From sequence record PZ445431.1: a stretch of 64,000 nt of DNA; one strand, given 5' to 3'. Source of the DNA: a phage. The notes beneath the pieces are model-generated. The model did no database searches. It had not been told where the DNA came from and saw only the letters and a list, made by a program, of their open reading frames with translations. Below, piece after piece: positions 45,590 through 50,894 of this stretch; positions within the stretch are counted from its first letter, which is position 1, and each line of letters opens with the position of its first letter. The position numbers were made by a program, and so were the translations under genes.

Positions 45590-45914
45590 GGAAGGAAGCG
45601 TTGATGGACAGTCAATTGTCAATCATGCTTTTGATCTTACAGTAGGATGTGCTAATCCGCTGGTGGCAGGTGAAACAGCAGATATTCTTGGGCTTTTAAT
45701 GGCAGTTGGCCAGTTAATCGAGATTACCCAAGAAGAGCTAGACAATGATGAAGAAGTAATTGTTCATGATGTTCTTGGTGCTCTAGATCTGATTGTTAAT
45801 GCTTATGCCTATAAACGCCGCCACTCAATTGATGAATATCGAGTTTCTCGTGAGATTACCGAATCTATTCTGGAAACTGCTGATATGGCCTTAAACGGCA
45901 AGCAACTTCACTAA
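45531..45914 (+). CDS. hypothetical acidic protein (about 127 aa)
   Basis: Internal ATG 45531 of track ORF 45465..45914. Confidence 0.45.
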   Translation: MTQKKNPVLEQMKQLEKQIEEGSVDGQSIVNHAFDLTVGCANPLVAGETADILGLLMAVGQLIEITQEELDNDEEVIVHDVLGALDLIVNAYAYKRRHSIDEYRVSREITESILETADMALNGKQLH

Positions 45915-45968
45915 TCCTAGAGGCCAGGACTTAATTGTTCTGGCCTTTCGTGTATCAAGGAATATAAT

Positions 45969-46166
45969 ATGAAATCACTAGATAATTACTTAAAAGCTAA
46001 ATACAGTCCTATAGAAGATCAATCCGCTGTAACTTGTGAAATAAGTCAAAATAATACATTACGATTAGCTCAAAAAGGTGGAGGAGCATCCGCCAGCATT
46101 ATTTGGCTATCCGAAGAACAAGCAAAAGACTTGTACCATAAGCTAGACAAGTTATTTAATAAGTAA
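45969..46166 (+). CDS. hypothetical protein (65 aa)
   Basis: ORF with AAGGAA RBS. Confidence 0.45.
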   Translation: MKSLDNYLKAKYSPIEDQSAVTCEISQNNTLRLAQKGGGASASIIWLSEEQAKDLYHKLDKLFNK

Positions 46167-46167
46167 T

Positions 46168-46686
46168 ATGAGAGATAAAATAAACGAATTACTTTATGAG
46201 GAAGCATTACAATTCCCCATAAATAGATTCACTAAATCAGATGGATCTATTAATAGAACTAAGCTCAAACAACTTCATCCAGATTTCCAGCAAGATGCAC
46301 TTAATCTAATCTTTATTAGAAGAGCTGTAGAAGCACATGGTAAGTTCTTTGGGTATGAAAGAGTTAAGTATAGAACTATGCAACAGCAAGTTGAGATCTA
46401 TTGTCCAGATCATGATGGTTACTTCTTGCAAACTGCACGGTCTCACTTAGAAGGACATGGTTGCCGATTATGTGCACATAAAGTTGTGACACGCTTAACA
46501 GAATATGGAGTGTACACCGTACCAGCACCTTTCCACAAATTTATAGTTGACGGTGAGCACATAATTTGGTATAATAAAGATCAAAAGTTAAAACAGGAGT
46601 TAAAGAAAGATGGAGTACGTAGTCTGGTCAAACCCCTTAGCTCTACTCTCCCACAAACTGTTCAAGACGACGTGGGGAAAGAATGA
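46168..46686 (+). CDS. putative endonuclease-like protein with His/Cys zinc-binding module (paralogue of 48708..49436)
   Basis: Shares HPDFQQDALNLIFI...YGYERV...QTARSHLEGHGC..CA block with 48708..49436. Confidence 0.5.
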   Translation: MRDKINELLYEEALQFPINRFTKSDGSINRTKLKQLHPDFQQDALNLIFIRRAVEAHGKFFGYERVKYRTMQQQVEIYCPDHDGYFLQTARSHLEGHGCRLCAHKVVTRLTEYGVYTVPAPFHKFIVDGEHIIWYNKDQKLKQELKKDGVRSLVKPLSSTLPQTVQDDVGKE

Positions 46687-46894
46687 GATAATTGTTAACG
46701 AGAGTCCTCTTAATCATCAACATCCTTTAGTCCCAGCTCTCTACAAGATTATTATAAATGGTACAGAATACCTAGTAGATGATTTCGGTAAAGAGTTTGT
46801 ACAAGAAGCCATAGACAACAATAACATTTCTATGGGCGAATTAATTAATAGAGCATCTAATTTTGATAAGAGTTGGATGCTAATCTGGGGTTGA
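46610..46894 (+). CDS. hypothetical protein (94 aa); start uncertain
   Basis: Track ORF overlapping previous gene by 77 nt. Confidence 0.3.
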   Translation: MEYVVWSNPLALLSHKLFKTTWGKNEIIVNESPLNHQHPLVPALYKIIINGTEYLVDDFGKEFVQEAIDNNNISMGELINRASNFDKSWMLIWG

Positions 46895-46895
46895 T

Positions 46896-47060
46896 ATGGA
46901 AACATTACTTCTTGTACTACTAGGCGGTTCACTCTTAACCATTCTAGGCTTGATAATTATATGTAGTCGCCTCAATGTTAAGAATCTAGAATTAGATAGT
47001 GAGAATCAGATTCTTAACCGAGAAATTAAACAACATAATACACAGCTCGTAAGCTGTTAG
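46896..47060 (+). CDS. possible small membrane-anchored protein (54 aa)
   Basis: ATG then hydrophobic N-terminus; not in track. Confidence 0.3.
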   Translation: METLLLVLLGGSLLTILGLIIICSRLNVKNLELDSENQILNREIKQHNTQLVSC

Positions 47061-47079
47061 ATAAACTGGAGAATAGATA

Positions 47080-47685
47080 ATGTTTACACAACAAACCATT
47101 AAAGTAGTTGCAGATCATGAACTCGACACATGGGATTACAGCTTTAAAGATCTGACTGCTACAGTACAGTTTAAATCTATGCAACTGTCGTTTTTGCACA
47201 TTGATCTTCAGGCTTGCAAAGAGTTTCAGGCTAAGCTCATGAATGCTCGTAAGATCTTTGGCACAGCTCGCATCCCGGCTGATAATCTGATTAATGCACT
47301 GATCGATGCAGGATACAAACTCGTGAAGACTGAAGTGAACCGCCCGAGTACTACAACTATTCCTCGTAATGACCCTTGGCATATTACTGCACTAACTAAT
47401 TCTGATAAAAGATTAATGTCGGATATGCACAATGTTCCGTGTGGTGGCGTGGTAAGCAATACGCAATCATATAAATTTGGGGAAACATCTAGCGTAGACG
47501 AGTGGAATAAAGCTGGCGTTGCAATGATGGGCTTTGCAAAAGATCGCGGAGCACAAGAAGACTCCGGAGTTTCTAGGAACTCATATACTATCCGTTTGAG
47601 CAATCCTAGAAAAGAGGGAGAGCTTGAAGAAATGTTAACGAAAGTATTCGAAGCTATTGATGCAGATAAAGCTAGAGGTCGTTAA
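47080..47685 (+). CDS. hypothetical protein (201 aa)
   Basis: ORF track; antisense ORFs judged spurious. Confidence 0.55.
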   Translation: MFTQQTIKVVADHELDTWDYSFKDLTATVQFKSMQLSFLHIDLQACKEFQAKLMNARKIFGTARIPADNLINALIDAGYKLVKTEVNRPSTTTIPRNDPWHITALTNSDKRLMSDMHNVPCGGVVSNTQSYKFGETSSVDEWNKAGVAMMGFAKDRGAQEDSGVSRNSYTIRLSNPRKEGELEEMLTKVFEAIDADKARGR

Positions 47686-47993
47686 TGGATATAATTACTC
47701 AGTTTACTGTAGGCCGCTGTAAGGTGGCCACACTCAATAAACATACAGTCGGAGTTAGTACATTATCTGAAAACGAATATGAACAAAAAGAAGATATGCA
47801 GTATATTCTCTTCATTGGTTCAGATGATATGAAGTTACTTAAAGACCTAGTATTTAAGTTACCTCCAAATATAAAAATAACACCTAGAAATATATCTCAC
47901 TTATCTAAGCAGCTAGGGTTTACGTGGATTAAGTTAGATCCTTCAGTGAAATCAGTAACAAAAACTAAACCAAAACCGGATGATTATATATGA
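47685..47993 (+). CDS. hypothetical protein (102 aa)
   Basis: Coupled ORF. Confidence 0.5.
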   Translation: MDIITQFTVGRCKVATLNKHTVGVSTLSENEYEQKEDMQYILFIGSDDMKLLKDLVFKLPPNIKITPRNISHLSKQLGFTWIKLDPSVKSVTKTKPKPDDYI

Positions 47994-48715
47994 GTATAAA
48001 AAAGAATTTAGCAGAGATTATTAAGTTAGCTAGAGCTTGTAATGGAAAGAATGTTTCCGAACTTAATGAGTTAGAAGCTCATGCAGTAGCATTTTGTGCA
48101 GAGTTTTATCCAGCATATATTAATGCTAGTGGGCAACCTAAATATAATAAAGATGCAGAAGAAGTCACATTAGCCCCTTCATACATTAGCTTACGTCGTC
48201 TAATTCAAACTATTGATCCGACTATTAAAGGATTCTCAGCGGATTCATTCCATGTGTTTGCAGATGTAGAACTTCCACATTTTAAGGAAGCAAATGCAAA
48301 GTCAGCATTAGAATGTTATCCAAATATTTTAATGGTTCCACAAAAGCAATGTAAATACGATCATCTTCCTAGACTTATTAAAAAGGTAGAACCTCCTTAT
48401 TCTTCCTTATCTGAATTAAAGCTAGGGATTGTATCTACTCTTACGCAAGTTCATCTAAGTTTAGTTGATGACAATGTTACTTCTAATCCTATTCTAGATG
48501 CCGCACATTATGAAATTCTACGTGACCCTGAGCAAGCTAGAAAAGTTGCAAAGTCAGTTAAGTTTGATATCTCAACAATTCTTGACATTGAACAAGAAAC
48601 GAGACCTAGAGGAAGTGTGGATTATTCTGCGCTTAATTCTGAAGCATCTTATTTAGCGACATTCCTTTTTATGGCATCGAAAGGAGTTATTCTAAAGGTT
48701 AACAAAGATGGATGA
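47990..48715 (+). CDS. hypothetical protein (241 aa)
   Basis: Coupled ORF. Confidence 0.55.
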   Translation: MSIKKNLAEIIKLARACNGKNVSELNELEAHAVAFCAEFYPAYINASGQPKYNKDAEEVTLAPSYISLRRLIQTIDPTIKGFSADSFHVFADVELPHFKEANAKSALECYPNILMVPQKQCKYDHLPRLIKKVEPPYSSLSELKLGIVSTLTQVHLSLVDDNVTSNPILDAAHYEILRDPEQARKVAKSVKFDISTILDIEQETRPRGSVDYSALNSEASYLATFLFMASKGVILKVNKDG

Positions 48716-49436
48716 TTTACGTAGTGAAATTAATAAAAACCTAAGAGAGGAAGCCAGGAGGTTTCCTCTCAAAAACTTTTTAAAGTCAAACGGTTCTACT
48801 AATATTACAAAGATTAGGCAGCTTCATCCAGACTTCCAACAAGAGGCATTAAATCTTATCTTTATTAAGAAAGCATTGAAAGTCCAAAAGGAAGAGTATG
48901 GGTATGAAAGAGTTAACTATAAAACAGCTACTCAATTAGTAGAGATTTGGTGTTACAAACATCAAGGCTATTTTATGCAAACAGCTAGATCCCATCTAGA
49001 AGGGCACGGTTGTTTACAATGTGCTAGAGAAAGCAATCTCAATACACCTATCGAGAAACCGGAAATAGATGAGGATGTTCAGTTTCCCACCTATCTCTAT
49101 ATCTTCTCTAATAAGGATCAGTCTAGGAAGAAATTAAAGACGAAGATTGGAGTTTCTAGAGAGCCACATCAAAGGTTTAAGAATCTAGAATATGATAAAC
49201 TGCGTGTGCCGGGTTTCGAAGATATGGAAGTATTTGGTATATATCAGTATAAGAAAGGATCTAAAGAACTTGCTTATAAAATGGAACATCAAGCACATAA
49301 ATTTTTCGAGAGCAGATTTGCTAATCATTATAAATTCGATGGAGCAAAAGAGATATTCAACGTTAAGGCTGTGGAGGCAGAAGAATATTTATTAAGTCAA
49401 GGATGCATAAAAATTTACCCAACTCCAAACTCATGA
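48708..49436 (+). CDS. putative GIY-YIG/T5orf172-like endonuclease with His/Cys zinc-binding module (paralogue of 46168..46686)
   Basis: N-terminal block shared with 46168 (HPDFQQEALNLIFI, QTARSHLEGHGCLQCA) plus C-terminal YLYIFSNKDQSRKKLKTKIGVSREPHQRFKNL GIY-YIG-like segment. Confidence 0.5.
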   Translation: MDDLRSEINKNLREEARRFPLKNFLKSNGSTNITKIRQLHPDFQQEALNLIFIKKALKVQKEEYGYERVNYKTATQLVEIWCYKHQGYFMQTARSHLEGHGCLQCARESNLNTPIEKPEIDEDVQFPTYLYIFSNKDQSRKKLKTKIGVSREPHQRFKNLEYDKLRVPGFEDMEVFGIYQYKKGSKELAYKMEHQAHKFFESRFANHYKFDGAKEIFNVKAVEAEEYLLSQGCIKIYPTPNS

Positions 49437-49463
49437 TAAAAATTTAAAAGTAACGAAATCTGC

Positions 49464-49493
49464 TTGACATTCGTGAGAATAATGTGTTATAAT
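49464..49493 (+). promoter_or_regulatory. near-consensus sigma70 promoter (TTGACA-N17/18-TATAAT) with no ORF downstream
   Basis: TTGACA at 49464-49469, TTATAAT at 49487-49493; differs from the TTGCTT early promoter class. Confidence 0.5.
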
Positions 49494-49779
49494 AATCTCA
49501 TAGATTAAAAACATCAACTTGTTTTTACCTCTAGGCCGTAGATTTACATCATTCCTCGTAGGAAAACACTTGATGACGGTTCTGCTTGCAGGTTCTCGTC
49601 AATTGTTCTTCCTCCCCGAGACTCAGGAGGATGTATCAAATCGCGCGCGCCTAGAGGGGCTAACTCTCATGAAATGGGGGTATATTAACTTTTAAATAAC
49701 TAAAAATATTTAAAGGCAATATTTATGTTCAAGATGATACACCTGTTGCCGCTCATCTGCTAGGATGGCACAACACTTT

Positions 49780-49979: not shown

Positions 49980-50580
49980 TGTCGGATTTGCACATTACAT
50001 TTCTAGAAATTTATGGTCGGATTTGCACATTGATAGGAGTCTCCAAAGTTTTTAGGAACACTGAAAATAGCAGCATTATTTCGGGCCGAAGGCCCATATT
50101 TGCCTGAGTTTTTAGAGCCACAGGAATTTTCACTTGTCAAGCGATTTTGCCCCATTTTGCTAATAAAATTTCGCTTTATCTCCCCTAATCTCAATTCTAG
50201 CCAAAACATCCCGCATTATCCTCAAAAATGCAGCAAACCGGTGCTAAAGCACCATCACCGCTGCTCCTTCCGTAGTTCCTCCCAAAATCTCATCGGATTC
50301 GCACTTCTCCCCAAACTCACACAATCACACACCCTCTCATCGAAGTCACAAAAATCTTGTCGGATTTGCACACCTTAACACTTGTCGGATTTGCACATAC
50401 TCTAGTAAACCCAGCTGGATTGCATCGCAGTTGCGGATTGCTGGAGTTTTTAGGAAAATTCATTGTCGGATTTGCACACTATAAAAATTTTTCGGGTAGG
50501 ATTTGCACATTACCAAAAATTGTCGGATTCGCACATACACGCCAGCACGTAACCCATGGAGCAAATGTCGGATTTGCACA
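49980..50580. repeat. iteron array: about 9 direct copies of TGTCGGATTTGCACA (minor variants)
   Basis: Copies at about 49980, 50016, 50291, 50359, 50383, 50464, 50496, 50521, 50566, all same orientation, irregular spacing. Confidence 0.9.
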
Positions 50581-50599: not shown

Positions 50600-50755
50600 C
50601 CTGCCTGCCGAAATGCGAATGATAATGAGAATGATTCGCATTTGAGAAGTTGAATGCGAATGAGAACAGTTATCATTTGACTACCGGAATACGAATGAGA
50701 ATGATTTGCATTTAGGAAGGGAAACGCTAATAATAATGAGAATGACTCGCATTTA
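50600..50755. repeat. second iteron family AATGAGAATGA(T/C)T(C/T)GCATTT (3 full copies plus partial), each embedding short AATGCGAAT/ATTCGCATT inverted motifs
   Basis: Copies at about 50621, 50693, 50733 plus GCGAATGAGAACAG at 50664. Confidence 0.85.
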
Positions 50756-50786
50756 CAAAGCGAAGTGAGAAACACTGTTATTTAAG

Positions 50787-50856
50787 TTATCCACAGGTTT
50801 ATTAACAGCACGATCTGACTTGACAAAATCCTAGTGATTTTGAGGCGTTATCCACA
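50787..50856 (+). promoter_or_regulatory. two perfect DnaA boxes (TTATCCACA) in direct orientation
   Basis: TTATCCACA at 50787-50795 and 50848-50856. Confidence 0.8.
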
Positions 50857-50894
50857 GACTTATCAACAGGTTATTCTACTGTATATTTATACAG
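50848..50894. repeat. left arm of about 47 bp inverted repeat (partner 54593-54639)
   Basis: TTATCCACAGACTTATCAACAGGTTATTCTACTGTATATTTATACAG versus reverse complement of 54593-54639, about 90% identical. Confidence 0.8.

What the first reader, a model, noticed from the sequence alone, without database searches (positions are those of the whole stretch)
46168..49436. Paralogous gene pair sharing a His/Cys module, one with an added GIY-YIG-like tail
The proteins at 46168-46686 and 48708-49436 share about 110 aa (HPDFQQ[DE]ALNLIFI...YGYERV...QTARSHLEGHGC..CA). The second adds a C-terminal segment resembling T5orf172/GIY-YIG. They look like homing-endonuclease-type selfish genes near the boundary with the pre-early block.
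Basis: seen in the sequence. Interest (0 to 1): 0.4.

Follow-up and report, generated by a model that had tools for sequence, protein, structure and literature searches.

The report
Optional phage nuclease and its nuclease-free relative
In this T5-like phage, one gene is an ordinary optional selfish-type DNA-cutting enzyme, and the other is a conserved, nuclease-free protein found across T5-like phages that shares the same zinc-finger DNA-recognition module.

Summary
The window matches Escherichia phage TrudiRoth (Bas30, T5-like). Gene A (46168-46686, 172 aa) and gene B (48708-49436, 242 aa) share an N-terminal module of about 106 aa (59% identity; BLASTP E=2e-46). B alone adds a T5orf172 (GIY-YIG superfamily) domain that scores above Pfam's cut-off and keeps the conserved core residues.

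The shared His/Cys core is one treble-clef zinc-finger unit (C-x2-H-x16-C-x2-C). It belongs to the CapR/DUF723/DUF4379 kind already described as the usual DNA-binding domain of phage T5orf172 homing endonucleases.

B behaves like a mobile nuclease gene:
- It is a clean ~750-bp insertion, present in 35 phage records.
- It sits in a slot that is empty or holds other nuclease genes in related phages.
- A recombination boundary abuts it.
- It is under purifying selection.

A is not a selfish nuclease gene. It has no nuclease domain or detectable relic. It occupies a fixed slot (T5p022) in at least five Demerecviridae genera plus an unclassified Serratia phage. Its dN/dS is 0.02-0.09. It is best read as a CapR-like sequence-specific DNA-binding early protein.

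The parts
46168..46686 (+). Gene A (bas30_0173, 172 aa). It is the positional ortholog of T5p022: a nuclease-free protein made of the shared DNA-binding module plus an A-specific tail.
   Evidence: ORF. Annotation. Synteny with T5p022 and orthologs in other Demerecviridae. phrog_4605 at E=1e-82. dN/dS 0.02-0.09.
46168..46299 (+). N-terminal helical part of the shared module in A (residues 1-44).
   Evidence: Aligned with B residues 4-47. The equivalent part of B is modelled as helices at pLDDT 90-98. No Pfam family matches it.
46300..46488 (+). Zinc-finger unit of A (residues 45-107). Putative ligands are C79, H82, C99 and C102, in the pattern C-x2-H-x16-C-x2-C.
   Evidence: Motif located. The ligands are invariant in A-type orthologs and in B. 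A profile of this unit retrieves 20,164 representative proteins. Sampled members of that set score above the Pfam cut-offs for DUF4379, DUF723 and CapR.
46489..46683 (+). A-specific tail (residues 108-172). Its first ~35 residues carry a motif conserved across genera (G.YTVPA.FHKF.VD..HIIWYN); the remainder is variable.
   Evidence: Alignments. hhalign gives 0.1% probability against the zinc-unit profile and 0.4% against the T5orf172 profile. Some orthologs lack the tail (P0188, Kamaji).
46547..46575 (+). Near-consensus sigma-70 promoter-like site (TTGACG-17-TATAAT with TG) inside the 3' part of gene A, just upstream of the overlapping ORF bas30_0174 (46610-46894).
   Evidence: T5 has a 'putative promoter' annotated inside the 3' part of T5p022 as well.
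48203..48702 (+). Divergent tract in the 3' part of bas30_0178, directly upstream of the B insertion. This is a recombination boundary.
   Evidence: Identity of TrudiRoth to the B-less phage 1-23 is 91-100% per 100-bp window from 46.9 to 48.2 kb (96-100% over the last 700 bp). It then falls to 83-88% up to the insertion point.
48703..49455 (+). Insertion that carries gene B, measured against B-less relatives. About 750 bp here correspond to about 22 bp in Salmonella phage 1-23.
   Evidence: blastn coordinates. Junction alignment.
48708..49436 (+). Gene B (bas30_0179, 242 aa): a free-standing T5orf172 endonuclease gene with an N-terminal zinc-finger DNA-binding module. Its ATG overlaps the stop codon of bas30_0178 (ATGGATGA).
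   Evidence: The ortholog in phage vB_SenS_S124 is annotated 'endonuclease'. dN/dS is 0.02-0.04 in both halves.
48849..49037 (+). Zinc-finger unit of B (residues 48-110). Ligands are C82, H85, C102 and C105.
   Evidence: The ligands are invariant in alignments A4 and A5. In the AlphaFold2 model at pLDDT ~97, C82 and H85 lie at the turn of the hairpin 77-82/87-92, and C102 and C105 lie at the start of helix 103-112, which is the treble-clef arrangement.
49092..49385 (+). T5orf172 (GIY-YIG superfamily) nuclease domain of B (residues 129-226). Conserved residues are Y131, K146, G148, R156, E193 and E215.
   Evidence: Pfam PF10544 at 26.6 bits against a cut-off of 20. These columns are invariant among divergent two-domain relatives. 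Foldseek against viral models gives 100 hits at E<=1e-3, named T5orf172, GIY-YIG or homing endonuclease.
49464..49493 (+). Perfect-consensus sigma-70 promoter-like site (TTGACA-18-TATAAT with TG). It forms the right border of the B slot.
   Evidence: The site is conserved in the B-less phage 1-23 and downstream of the module-only gene P0190.

Best explanation
Gene B encodes a free-standing, homing-type T5orf172 (GIY-YIG superfamily) endonuclease.

Inferred mechanism for B: its N-terminal module (a helical segment plus one treble-clef zinc finger of the CapR/DUF723/DUF4379 kind) recognises a DNA sequence. The C-terminal nuclease domain cuts nearby in related phage genomes that lack the gene. 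During co-infection, repair from the B-carrying genome copies B and adjacent DNA into the cut genome. B occupies a hot-spot between the last early gene and a strong promoter just before the injection-stop/terminal-repeat boundary.

Gene A is not a nuclease. It is the conserved, nuclease-free paralog of B's DNA-binding module, and it is carried in the same early-gene slot throughout the T5-like family (Demerecviridae). It most likely acts as a zinc-dependent, sequence-specific DNA-binding protein, for example a transcriptional regulator in the manner of CapR.

B's module branches inside the A-type radiation, so B is probably a chimera of an A-type module and a slot-resident T5orf172 nuclease. 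The direction of that event is not settled.

Shown here: the homology, the domain content, conservation of the metal-ligand and catalytic residues, the distribution among phages, the insertion junctions and the selection regime.

Inferred, not shown: zinc binding, DNA binding, cleavage, homing, and any regulatory role for A.
For: Homology and domains:
- A and B align at E=2e-46.
- T5orf172 scores above the Pfam cut-off in B only.
- Both match phrog_4605, and both match 'endonuclease' phrog_681 through the zinc unit.

Zinc unit:
- The profile of the module finds 20,164 representative proteins, often with 5-14 tandem units.
- Sampled hits score above the gathering cut-offs for DUF4379 ('probable treble clef zinc finger'), DUF723 and CapR. 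P0117 ends in T5orf172.
- C82, H85, C102 and C105 are invariant.
- The model shows treble-clef geometry at pLDDT ~97.

Nuclease:
- Y131, K146, G148, R156, E193 and E215 are invariant among divergent relatives.
- dN/dS is 0.02-0.05 in the nuclease half.
- BFVD fold matches are to T5orf172, GIY-YIG, CapR and 'Hef-like homing endonuclease' proteins.

Mobility:
- B is a clean insertion relative to phage 1-23.
- The nuclease domain occurs at >=90% identity in only 35 records, whereas an A-type gene at >=60% identity occurs in about 520.
- The same slot is empty in some phages. In others it holds a 118-aa or a 123-aa nuclease-only gene, or a 119-aa module-only gene.
- There is an identity step 500 bp upstream of B.
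- Between TrudiRoth and S124, B has dS 0.56 while A has dS 1.75. The 0178-B-downstream block is 86% identical in DNA, against 75% for A.

Gene A:
- It is a short gene in the same slot in five classified genera, an unclassified Serratia phage and a metagenomic contig.
- Module dN/dS is 0.01-0.04.

Literature:
- 87% of 229 phage T5orf172 HEGs carry CapR, DUF723 or DUF4379 zinc fingers, and T5-like phages are enriched in T5orf172 genes (PMC10448857).
- CapR is a nuclease-free relative that represses a promoter, and it needs its four cysteines to bind DNA (PMC8096241).
- The T5orf172 nuclease Odn cleaves DNA in vitro, and the E180A mutant does not (PMC8263062).
Against: - Neither A nor B reaches any Pfam zinc-finger model directly, even at E<=10. 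Assignment of the module is transitive, supported also by a precomputed PF05265 flag.
- No solved structure matches significantly. The only thematically consistent PDB hits are weak ones to Slx1 and UPF0213.
- The nuclease domain is modelled only at pLDDT 50-86.
- Homing has not been demonstrated experimentally for any T5orf172 gene, according to Barth et al.. Patchy distribution could also arise from ordinary recombination and deletion.
- The identity step upstream of B is not matched by higher identity to the two B-carrying phages examined, so no donor has been identified.
- Gene A is truncated to 53 aa in phage KKP 3953. Either it is dispensable there or the record contains an error.
- The module tree is neighbour-joining, midpoint-rooted and has no support values.
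Confidence: 0.7

Rival explanations
1. Both genes are homing-endonuclease genes, and A is a decaying copy that has lost its nuclease domain and is on its way to deletion.
For: A shares the DNA-binding module with a nuclease gene. A module-only derivative of the B lineage, P0190, exists in the B slot, so nuclease loss does happen. A's tail shows a short resemblance to the start of B's nuclease domain. A is truncated in KKP 3953.
Against: A-type genes are short and syntenic in five classified Demerecviridae genera plus unclassified relatives. dN/dS is 0.02-0.09. About 520 records carry an A-type gene at >=60% identity. The tail resemblance is reached by 4.6% of shuffles, and hhalign against T5orf172 gives 0.4% probability. 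tblastn finds no nuclease remnant downstream of A.
Confidence: 0.07
2. B is not a homing element. It is a co-opted, Odn-like weapon: a nuclease that acquired the DNA-recognition module of the family's own early protein A, and so cuts at A-type binding sites in competing T5-like phages or in a parasitic element, to the benefit of the carrier phage.
For: B's module nests within the A-type radiation. The closest relatives of its nuclease domain are stand-alone T5orf172 genes in the same slot, which fits a chimera. Both halves are under strong purifying selection. There is a precedent: Odn combines a T5orf172 domain with a captured RepA_N domain and cleaves the site bound by the donor protein (PMC8263062; PMC10448857).
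Against: No target is known. B is found in only 35 records, which is typical of a selfish gene. B matches no defence-system model. Its module is only 59-66% identical to the A-types, so shared specificity is not guaranteed. A precise slot with alternative nuclease genes and an adjoining recombination boundary is the classical HEG pattern.
Confidence: 0.13
3. B is catalytically dead and acts only as a DNA-binding regulator, like CapR or I-TevI autorepression. On this view A and B are two paralogous regulators.
For: The zinc-finger module is the best-conserved and best-modelled part. B lies immediately upstream of a consensus promoter. CapR shows that such proteins can act as repressors.
Against: All conserved T5orf172 core residues, including the Arg and the Glu columns, are intact. 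The nuclease half has dN/dS 0.02-0.05. Pfam T5orf172 scores above its cut-off.
Confidence: 0.05

Closest known systems
T5orf172 homing endonucleases of vibriophage ICP1 and other phages (e.g. ICP1 Gp165, Gp174; Barth, Dunham & Seed 2023, PMC10448857)
   Same: [quoted passage not shown] It is free-standing, patchily distributed and lies at a boundary of genetic exchange. That paper already names T5-like phages as a lineage rich in T5orf172 genes.
   Different: B has a single zinc unit, preceded by a ~47-residue helical segment found almost only in T5-like phages (with one weak match in jumbo phage GAP32). The ligand pattern is C-x2-H...C-x2-C rather than CxxC...CxC. The module falls below all three Pfam models when scanned directly.
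CapR of the Vibrio cholerae PLE satellite (Netter et al. 2021, PMC8096241)
   Same: Gene A resembles CapR in being a small, nuclease-free protein homologous to the zinc-finger DNA-binding domain of T5orf172 endonucleases. CapR binds a promoter and represses it, and its four cysteines are required for binding.
   Different: A is encoded by the phage itself and is conserved family-wide in a fixed early-gene slot, not by a satellite. Its target and function are unknown. It has an A-specific conserved tail. Sequence similarity to the CapR Pfam model is not detectable directly.
Odn (ICP1 Gp88), a chimeric origin-directed T5orf172 nuclease (Barth et al. 2021, PMC8263062)
   Same: Odn is a T5orf172 nuclease whose DNA-binding domain is homologous to that of another, nuclease-free DNA-binding protein. 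This suggests chimera formation by domain capture. Its nuclease activity and the catalytic Glu were shown experimentally.
   Different: Odn's captured domain is RepA_N from a satellite, and its target (the satellite origin) is known. B's module is a zinc finger related to a protein of its own phage family, and no target is known.
Stand-alone T5orf172 genes of T5-like phages ('putative homing endonuclease P-TflXVII' / YomD-like, e.g. DT57C gp012, T5_ev219)
   Same: They occupy the same intergenic slot, directly downstream of the bas30_0178 homolog. Their nuclease domain is homologous to B's at 36-41% identity.
   Different: They are 118-123 aa with no DNA-binding module at all.
I-TevI and the Seg proteins of phage T4 (GIY-YIG homing endonucleases)
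   Same: They share the GIY-YIG superfamily catalytic fold joined to a separate DNA-binding region. I-TevI also contains a small zinc finger. The Seg proteins have the same free-standing lifestyle between phage genes.
   Different: The domain order is reversed: the nuclease is N-terminal in I-TevI and the Seg proteins. The I-TevI zinc finger sits in the linker, and its DNA-binding domain is a helix-turn-helix. No significant sequence or fold match was obtained here.

Membership tests
T5orf172 (Pfam PF10544; GIY-YIG clan) - gene B | Match to the family profile above the curated threshold | tested here: met
   26.6 bits against a cut-off of 20, residues 129-226 matching profile positions 2-95 of 101. 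The precomputed annotation of the 95%-identical P0001 also lists PF10544.
T5orf172 (Pfam PF10544; GIY-YIG clan) - gene B | Conserved core residues: Tyr of the first strand, K-I-G of the second strand, the conserved Arg, and the conserved Glu needed for catalysis | tested here: met
   Y131, K146, G148, R156, E193 and E215 are invariant in an alignment with seven relatives at 25-35% identity. Equating E215 with Odn E180 or I-TevI E75 is inferred from motif position (FDG..E.F). It was not aligned directly.
T5orf172 (Pfam PF10544; GIY-YIG clan) - gene B | GIY-YIG-like alpha/beta fold | tested here: inconclusive
   The model shows strand-strand-helix-strand-helix, but only at pLDDT 50-86. PDB hits to Slx1 and UPF0213 are not significant (E 0.5-2.4). 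Hits to predicted T5orf172 and GIY-YIG viral proteins are strong (E down to 2e-11 beyond the ortholog).
T5orf172 (Pfam PF10544; GIY-YIG clan) - gene B | Metal-dependent endonuclease activity | not testable with these tools
   This needs purified protein. It has been shown only for the relative Odn (PMC8263062).
Homing endonuclease gene (functional class) - gene B | Presence/absence polymorphism at one precise site among otherwise collinear relatives | tested here: met
   Window 48703-49455 corresponds to ~22 bp in phage 1-23, with conserved flanks. B occurs in 35 records at >=90% identity. It is in the same slot in TrudiRoth, S124 and KKP 3953.
Homing endonuclease gene (functional class) - gene B | Evidence of horizontal spread together with flanking DNA (co-conversion) | tested here: inconclusive
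   Identity falls from 96-100% to 83-88% in the 500 bp upstream of B when compared with a B-less phage. Between TrudiRoth and S124, B and its neighbours are more similar than gene A is (dS 0.56 against 1.75; 86% against 75% DNA identity). No donor tract was identified.
Homing endonuclease gene (functional class) - gene B | Site-specific cleavage of the gene-less allele and preferential inheritance in mixed infection | not testable with these tools
   This requires in vitro cleavage mapping and phage crosses. It has not been demonstrated for any T5orf172 gene, according to PMC10448857.
Homing endonuclease gene (functional class) - gene A | Possession of a nuclease domain | tested here: not met
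   Pfam, NCBIfam and PADLOC give no hits for A or its tail. hhalign of the tail profile against T5orf172 gives 0.4% probability. Orthologs are 121-172 aa everywhere.
Homing endonuclease gene (functional class) - gene A | Sporadic distribution | tested here: not met
   An A-type gene at >=60% identity is found in ~520 records. It is syntenic in Tequintavirus, Epseptimavirus, Sugarlandvirus, Priunavirus, Novosibvirus and an unclassified Serratia Demerecviridae phage.
CapR / DUF723 / DUF4379 treble-clef zinc-finger DNA-binding domains - shared module of A and B | Direct match to PF21817, PF05265 or PF14311 above threshold | tested here: not met
   hmmscan of the isolated modules and of P0002-P0004 at E<=10 returns nothing. 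Only the database's precomputed table flags PF05265.
CapR / DUF723 / DUF4379 treble-clef zinc-finger DNA-binding domains - shared module of A and B | Homology to members of those families by profile search | tested here: met
   The A+B profile finds 20,164 proteins at E<=1e-3, matching residues ~52-108 repeatedly. Of ten top hits scanned, nine score above the cut-off for DUF4379, six for DUF723 and two for CapR. In P0014 the same stretch (73-129) is the best match for both my profile and CapR.
CapR / DUF723 / DUF4379 treble-clef zinc-finger DNA-binding domains - shared module of A and B | Four conserved metal ligands arranged as a treble clef: a knuckle in a beta-hairpin plus the first turn of a helix | tested here: met
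   C, H, C and C are invariant in alignments A3, A4 and A5. In the model, C82 and H85 sit at the turn between strands 77-82 and 87-92, and C102 and C105 sit at the start of helix 103-112, at pLDDT ~97. This is a predicted structure, not a solved one.
CapR / DUF723 / DUF4379 treble-clef zinc-finger DNA-binding domains - shared module of A and B | Zinc binding and sequence-specific DNA binding | not testable with these tools
   Shown only for CapR, by EMSA and Cys-to-Ser mutants (PMC8096241).

The most novel reading that the evidence does not exclude
B is an Odn-like chimera that captured the DNA-recognition module of the family-wide early protein A. It would therefore cut at, or next to, the operator sites that A-type proteins bind in rival T5-like phages. 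A itself would be an uncharacterised regulator of the early/pre-early boundary of T5-like phages, for instance one that binds the conserved GTCGGATTTGCACA array in the injection-stop region. On this reading the pair would be a natural example of a selfish nuclease re-targeted through a resident regulator's DNA-binding domain, and a way into an unknown step of T5 early regulation.
Probability: 0.1. Interest if true: 0.6.

Novelty: new member of a known kind. Interest (0 to 1): 0.3.

Why it matters
Gene B adds nothing new in kind. T5orf172 nucleases with zinc-finger DNA-binding domains are already described, and T5-like phages are known to be rich in them.

Two things are modestly useful:
- One intergenic slot shows a natural series: empty, full-length B, module-only, and two different nuclease-only genes. 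This makes it a convenient system for testing experimentally whether T5orf172 genes really home, which has not yet been shown. It also allows study of how such nucleases gain and lose DNA-binding domains.
- Gene A (T5p022 in T5) can now be annotated as a conserved, nuclease-free, CapR-like zinc-finger protein. This gives a testable function (sequence-specific DNA binding, possibly regulation) to an early gene of unknown function present across the T5-like family, in a model phage whose early regulation is still poorly understood.

Tried and rejected
- **Single-sequence AlphaFold2 of B:** pLDDT 33, unusable. It was replaced by an alignment-based model.
- **Direct Pfam and NCBIfam scans of the module and of A's tail:** no family even at E<=10.
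- **Sequence search of B against PDB chains:** only chance-level ribosomal protein hits.
- **Foldseek against PDB:** nothing at E<=1e-3.
- **A's tail as a relic of the first strands of a T5orf172 domain:** the local score of 35 is reached by 229 of 5000 shuffles, and hhalign gives 0.4% probability. Rejected.
- **A's tail as a degenerate half of a second zinc-finger unit:** hhalign gives 0.1% probability. Rejected.
- **More distant T5-like phages might carry a full nuclease in the A slot:** the Serratia phage Kamaji gene is annotated 'putative endonuclease' but is only 134 aa, and all others are 121-158 aa. Rejected.
- **P0190 as an A-slot donor lineage of B's module:** rejected. It lies in the B slot, between a T5p017 homolog and the promoter.
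- **Anti-phage defence models (PADLOC):** no hits.
- **Literature search for T5p022, T5.023 or bas30_0173:** no characterisation found.
- **First homologous-protein search with B alone:** only 4 hits because of the word index. An alignment query was needed.

Full report
**Identity of the window.** The region 45900-49700 is 100% identical to Escherichia phage TrudiRoth (MZ501109, locus tags bas30_, Demerecviridae, Epseptimavirus), a T5-like phage of the BASEL collection. The two ORFs in the finding are bas30_0173 (46168-46686, 172 aa, here 'A') and bas30_0179 (48708-49436, 242 aa, here 'B'). Both are annotated as hypothetical proteins.

**The observation.** BLASTP of A against B gives 48% identity over 156 columns, E=2e-46. 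tblastn of both proteins against the whole window finds only these two copies.

B alone matches Pfam T5orf172 (PF10544) at 26.6 bits against a gathering cut-off of 20, over residues 129-226, and it also matches the related MUG113 weakly. Both proteins match phrog_4605 (unknown function). Through residues ~50-105 both also match phrog_681 'endonuclease', and B's match continues into the nuclease domain.

**What the shared module is.** A profile of the two modules, searched against 1.84 billion representative proteins, found 20,164 proteins at E<=1e-3. The match is always to residues ~52-108, and in the best hits it recurs 5-14 times in tandem.

I scanned ten of those proteins against Pfam. Nine score above the curated cut-off for DUF4379 ('probable treble clef zinc finger'), six for DUF723 and two for the CapR homology domain. 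One of them, P0117, ends in a T5orf172 domain. A and B themselves match none of these models directly, even at E<=10. The assignment is therefore transitive, although the protein database's precomputed table does flag PF05265 on the A/B family.

The unit carries four invariant putative metal ligands in the pattern C-x2-H-x16-C-x2-C. These are C79, H82, C99 and C102 in A, and C82, H85, C102 and C105 in B.

An AlphaFold2 model of B built on a 39-row alignment has pLDDT 90-98 for residues 1-110. It shows four helices, a beta-hairpin (77-82/87-92) with C82 and H85 at its turn, and a helix (103-112) beginning at C102 and C105. That is the treble-clef arrangement. A single-sequence model had failed.

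In other proteins the same unit is fused to HNH, Vsr-like and other nuclease domains as well as to T5orf172. It is evidently a portable DNA-binding module.

**The nuclease domain of B.** I aligned B with seven relatives of 25-35% identity that have the same 'zinc unit, linker, T5orf172' layout. The invariant columns include Y131, K146, G148, R156, E193 and E215, corresponding to the motifs YLYI, KIGxS, QRFKNL and FDGxxExF.

dN/dS between B orthologs is 0.02-0.04 overall and similar in both halves, so the nuclease is being maintained. Foldseek against solved structures gave nothing significant. The only thematically consistent weak hits were the GIY-YIG nucleases Slx1 and UPF0213. Against predicted viral structures there were 100 hits at E<=1e-3. 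The named ones include T5orf172, GIY-YIG, CapR-homology, treble-clef and 'Hef-like homing endonuclease' proteins.

**Is B mobile?**
- Relative to Salmonella phage 1-23, window 48703-49455 is replaced by about 22 bp. B sits exactly between the stop codon of bas30_0178 (which its ATG overlaps) and a perfect-consensus promoter at 49464-49493.
- B's nuclease domain occurs at >=90% identity in only 35 phage records, and the next-best matches are below 60%. An A-type gene at >=60% identity occurs in about 520 records.
- The same slot has at least five states:
  - empty (1-23);
  - B (TrudiRoth, S124, KKP 3953);
  - a 118-aa T5orf172-only gene annotated 'putative homing endonuclease P-TflXVII' (DT57C, T5_ev219);
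  - a 123-aa T5orf172-only gene (STP-SP9);
  - a 119-aa module-only gene, P0190. It is 72% identical to B's module and lies between a T5p017 homolog and the same promoter.
- TrudiRoth and 1-23 are 91-100% identical per 100-bp window from 46.9 to 48.2 kb, and 96-100% over the last 700 bp of that stretch. Identity then drops to 83-88% for the 500 bp abutting B.
- Between TrudiRoth and S124 (filed under Tequintavirus), B has dS 0.56 and its block is 86% identical in DNA. Gene A has dS 1.75 and 75% DNA identity.

All of this matches the pattern described for phage HEGs, including T5orf172 genes (PMC10448857). That paper also states that homing by T5orf172 genes has not been verified experimentally. 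Nuclease activity and dependence on the conserved Glu have been shown only for the relative Odn (PMC8263062).

**Gene A is something else.** It is the positional ortholog of T5p022 (148 aa) in T5. A short gene with the same module occupies the same slot in several other lineages:

| Lineage | Phage or source | Length |
|---|---|---|
| Sugarlandvirus | KpGranit | 158 aa |
| Priunavirus | PSTCR5 | 150 aa |
| Novosibvirus | VTCCBPA139 | 158 aa |
| Unclassified Demerecviridae (Serratia) | Kamaji | 134 aa |
| Metagenomic T5-like contig | P0188 | 121 aa |

None of these has a nuclease domain. dN/dS is 0.02-0.09 for the whole gene and 0.01-0.04 for the module.

After the zinc finger, most orthologs share an A-specific motif (G.YTVPA.FHKF.VD..HIIWYN). 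It is neither a detectable T5orf172 relic (hhalign probability 0.4%) nor a second zinc unit (0.1%). The pairwise resemblance of the A and B tails is at chance level, being reached by 4.6% of shuffles. A is truncated to 53 aa in KKP 3953, so it may be dispensable in some backgrounds, or that record may contain an error.

The closest described analogue is CapR. CapR is a nuclease-free relative of T5orf172 HEG DNA-binding domains that represses a phage promoter and needs its zinc-finger cysteines to bind DNA (PMC8096241). I therefore interpret A as a conserved, zinc-dependent, sequence-specific DNA-binding early protein. Its target is unknown, and I found no paper that characterises it.

**Relationship between A and B.** In a neighbour-joining tree of the modules, B and P0190 branch inside the A-type radiation. 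They are sister to the Markadamsvirinae plus Sugarlandvirus A genes, and the Serratia, Priunavirus and Novosibvirus A genes branch outside them. The nearest relatives of B's nuclease domain are the stand-alone T5orf172 genes of the same slot.

The simplest reading is that B is a chimera of an A-type module and a resident nuclease, as was proposed for Odn. However, the tree is midpoint-rooted and has no support values. P0190 also shows that nuclease loss from a B-type gene occurs. The opposite direction, with A as a very old nuclease-loss derivative, therefore cannot be excluded.

**Verdict.** A is a conserved CapR-like paralog that has not been described as such. Interest is modest. The most useful by-products are the multi-state slot as a test bed for T5orf172 homing, and a concrete functional hypothesis for T5p022.

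Noticed in passing
window 49981-50580: There are eight same-strand copies of the 14-mer GTCGGATTTGCACA (six exact, two with one mismatch). The window holds 12 matches at <=2 mismatches, against 0.36 expected. The array is conserved at the equivalent place in T5, DT57C, 1-23 and others, where T5 has its annotated injection stop signal. One further near-copy lies inside bas30_0176 (47418-47431) and is exact in the T5p018 region of T5. The binding factor, if any, was not examined.
   Followed up: partly
window 50610-50881: There are four overlapping ~35-nt-period repeats (GAATGCGAATGAGAATGA...) with an internal inverted repeat, followed by two to three DnaA-box-like GTTATCCACAG elements (50786, 50847, 50859). 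This lies just before the presumed terminal-repeat boundary.
   Followed up: no
window 49464-49493: A perfect-consensus extended -10 sigma-70 promoter (TTGACA-18-TGnTATAAT) points into a ~1.5-kb stretch without long ORFs. It is conserved in B-less phages and in the metagenomic contig L016. What it transcribes was not determined.
   Followed up: partly
window 45956-46163 (bas30_0172, 45969-46166): The small gene immediately upstream of A is another indel. Its ~208 bp are absent from phages 1-23 and KKP 3953, which join 45955 directly to 46164. Phage 1-23 carries an unrelated 423-nt gene slightly further upstream instead.
   Followed up: partly
L003 3060-3221 (Salmonella phage KKP 3953): Gene A is interrupted after 53 codons in this phage and is annotated as fragments. 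The B ortholog in the same phage has lost its stop codon and is extended to 266 aa.
   Followed up: no
proteins P0005-P0154 (representative search): The 57-aa zinc unit forms long tandem arrays, with a median of 7 units and up to 14, in proteins of 400-1000 aa from metagenomes. Only 6 of the top 150 end in T5orf172. Others carry HNH, Vsr-like, DUF2726 or no recognisable effector domain.
   Followed up: partly
L006 2357-3049 (Klebsiella phage YX3973 gp32): A two-zinc-unit T5orf172 protein, 29% identical to B, sits free-standing between the portal and head-morphogenesis genes of an unrelated 47-kb siphovirus. This is a typical homing-endonuclease position.
   Followed up: no
window 46610-46894 (bas30_0174): This annotated ORF overlaps the last 77 nt of gene A in another frame and starts just after the promoter-like site inside A. 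The overlap probably explains the lower synonymous divergence and the higher dN/dS (0.2-0.8) of A's tail.
   Followed up: no
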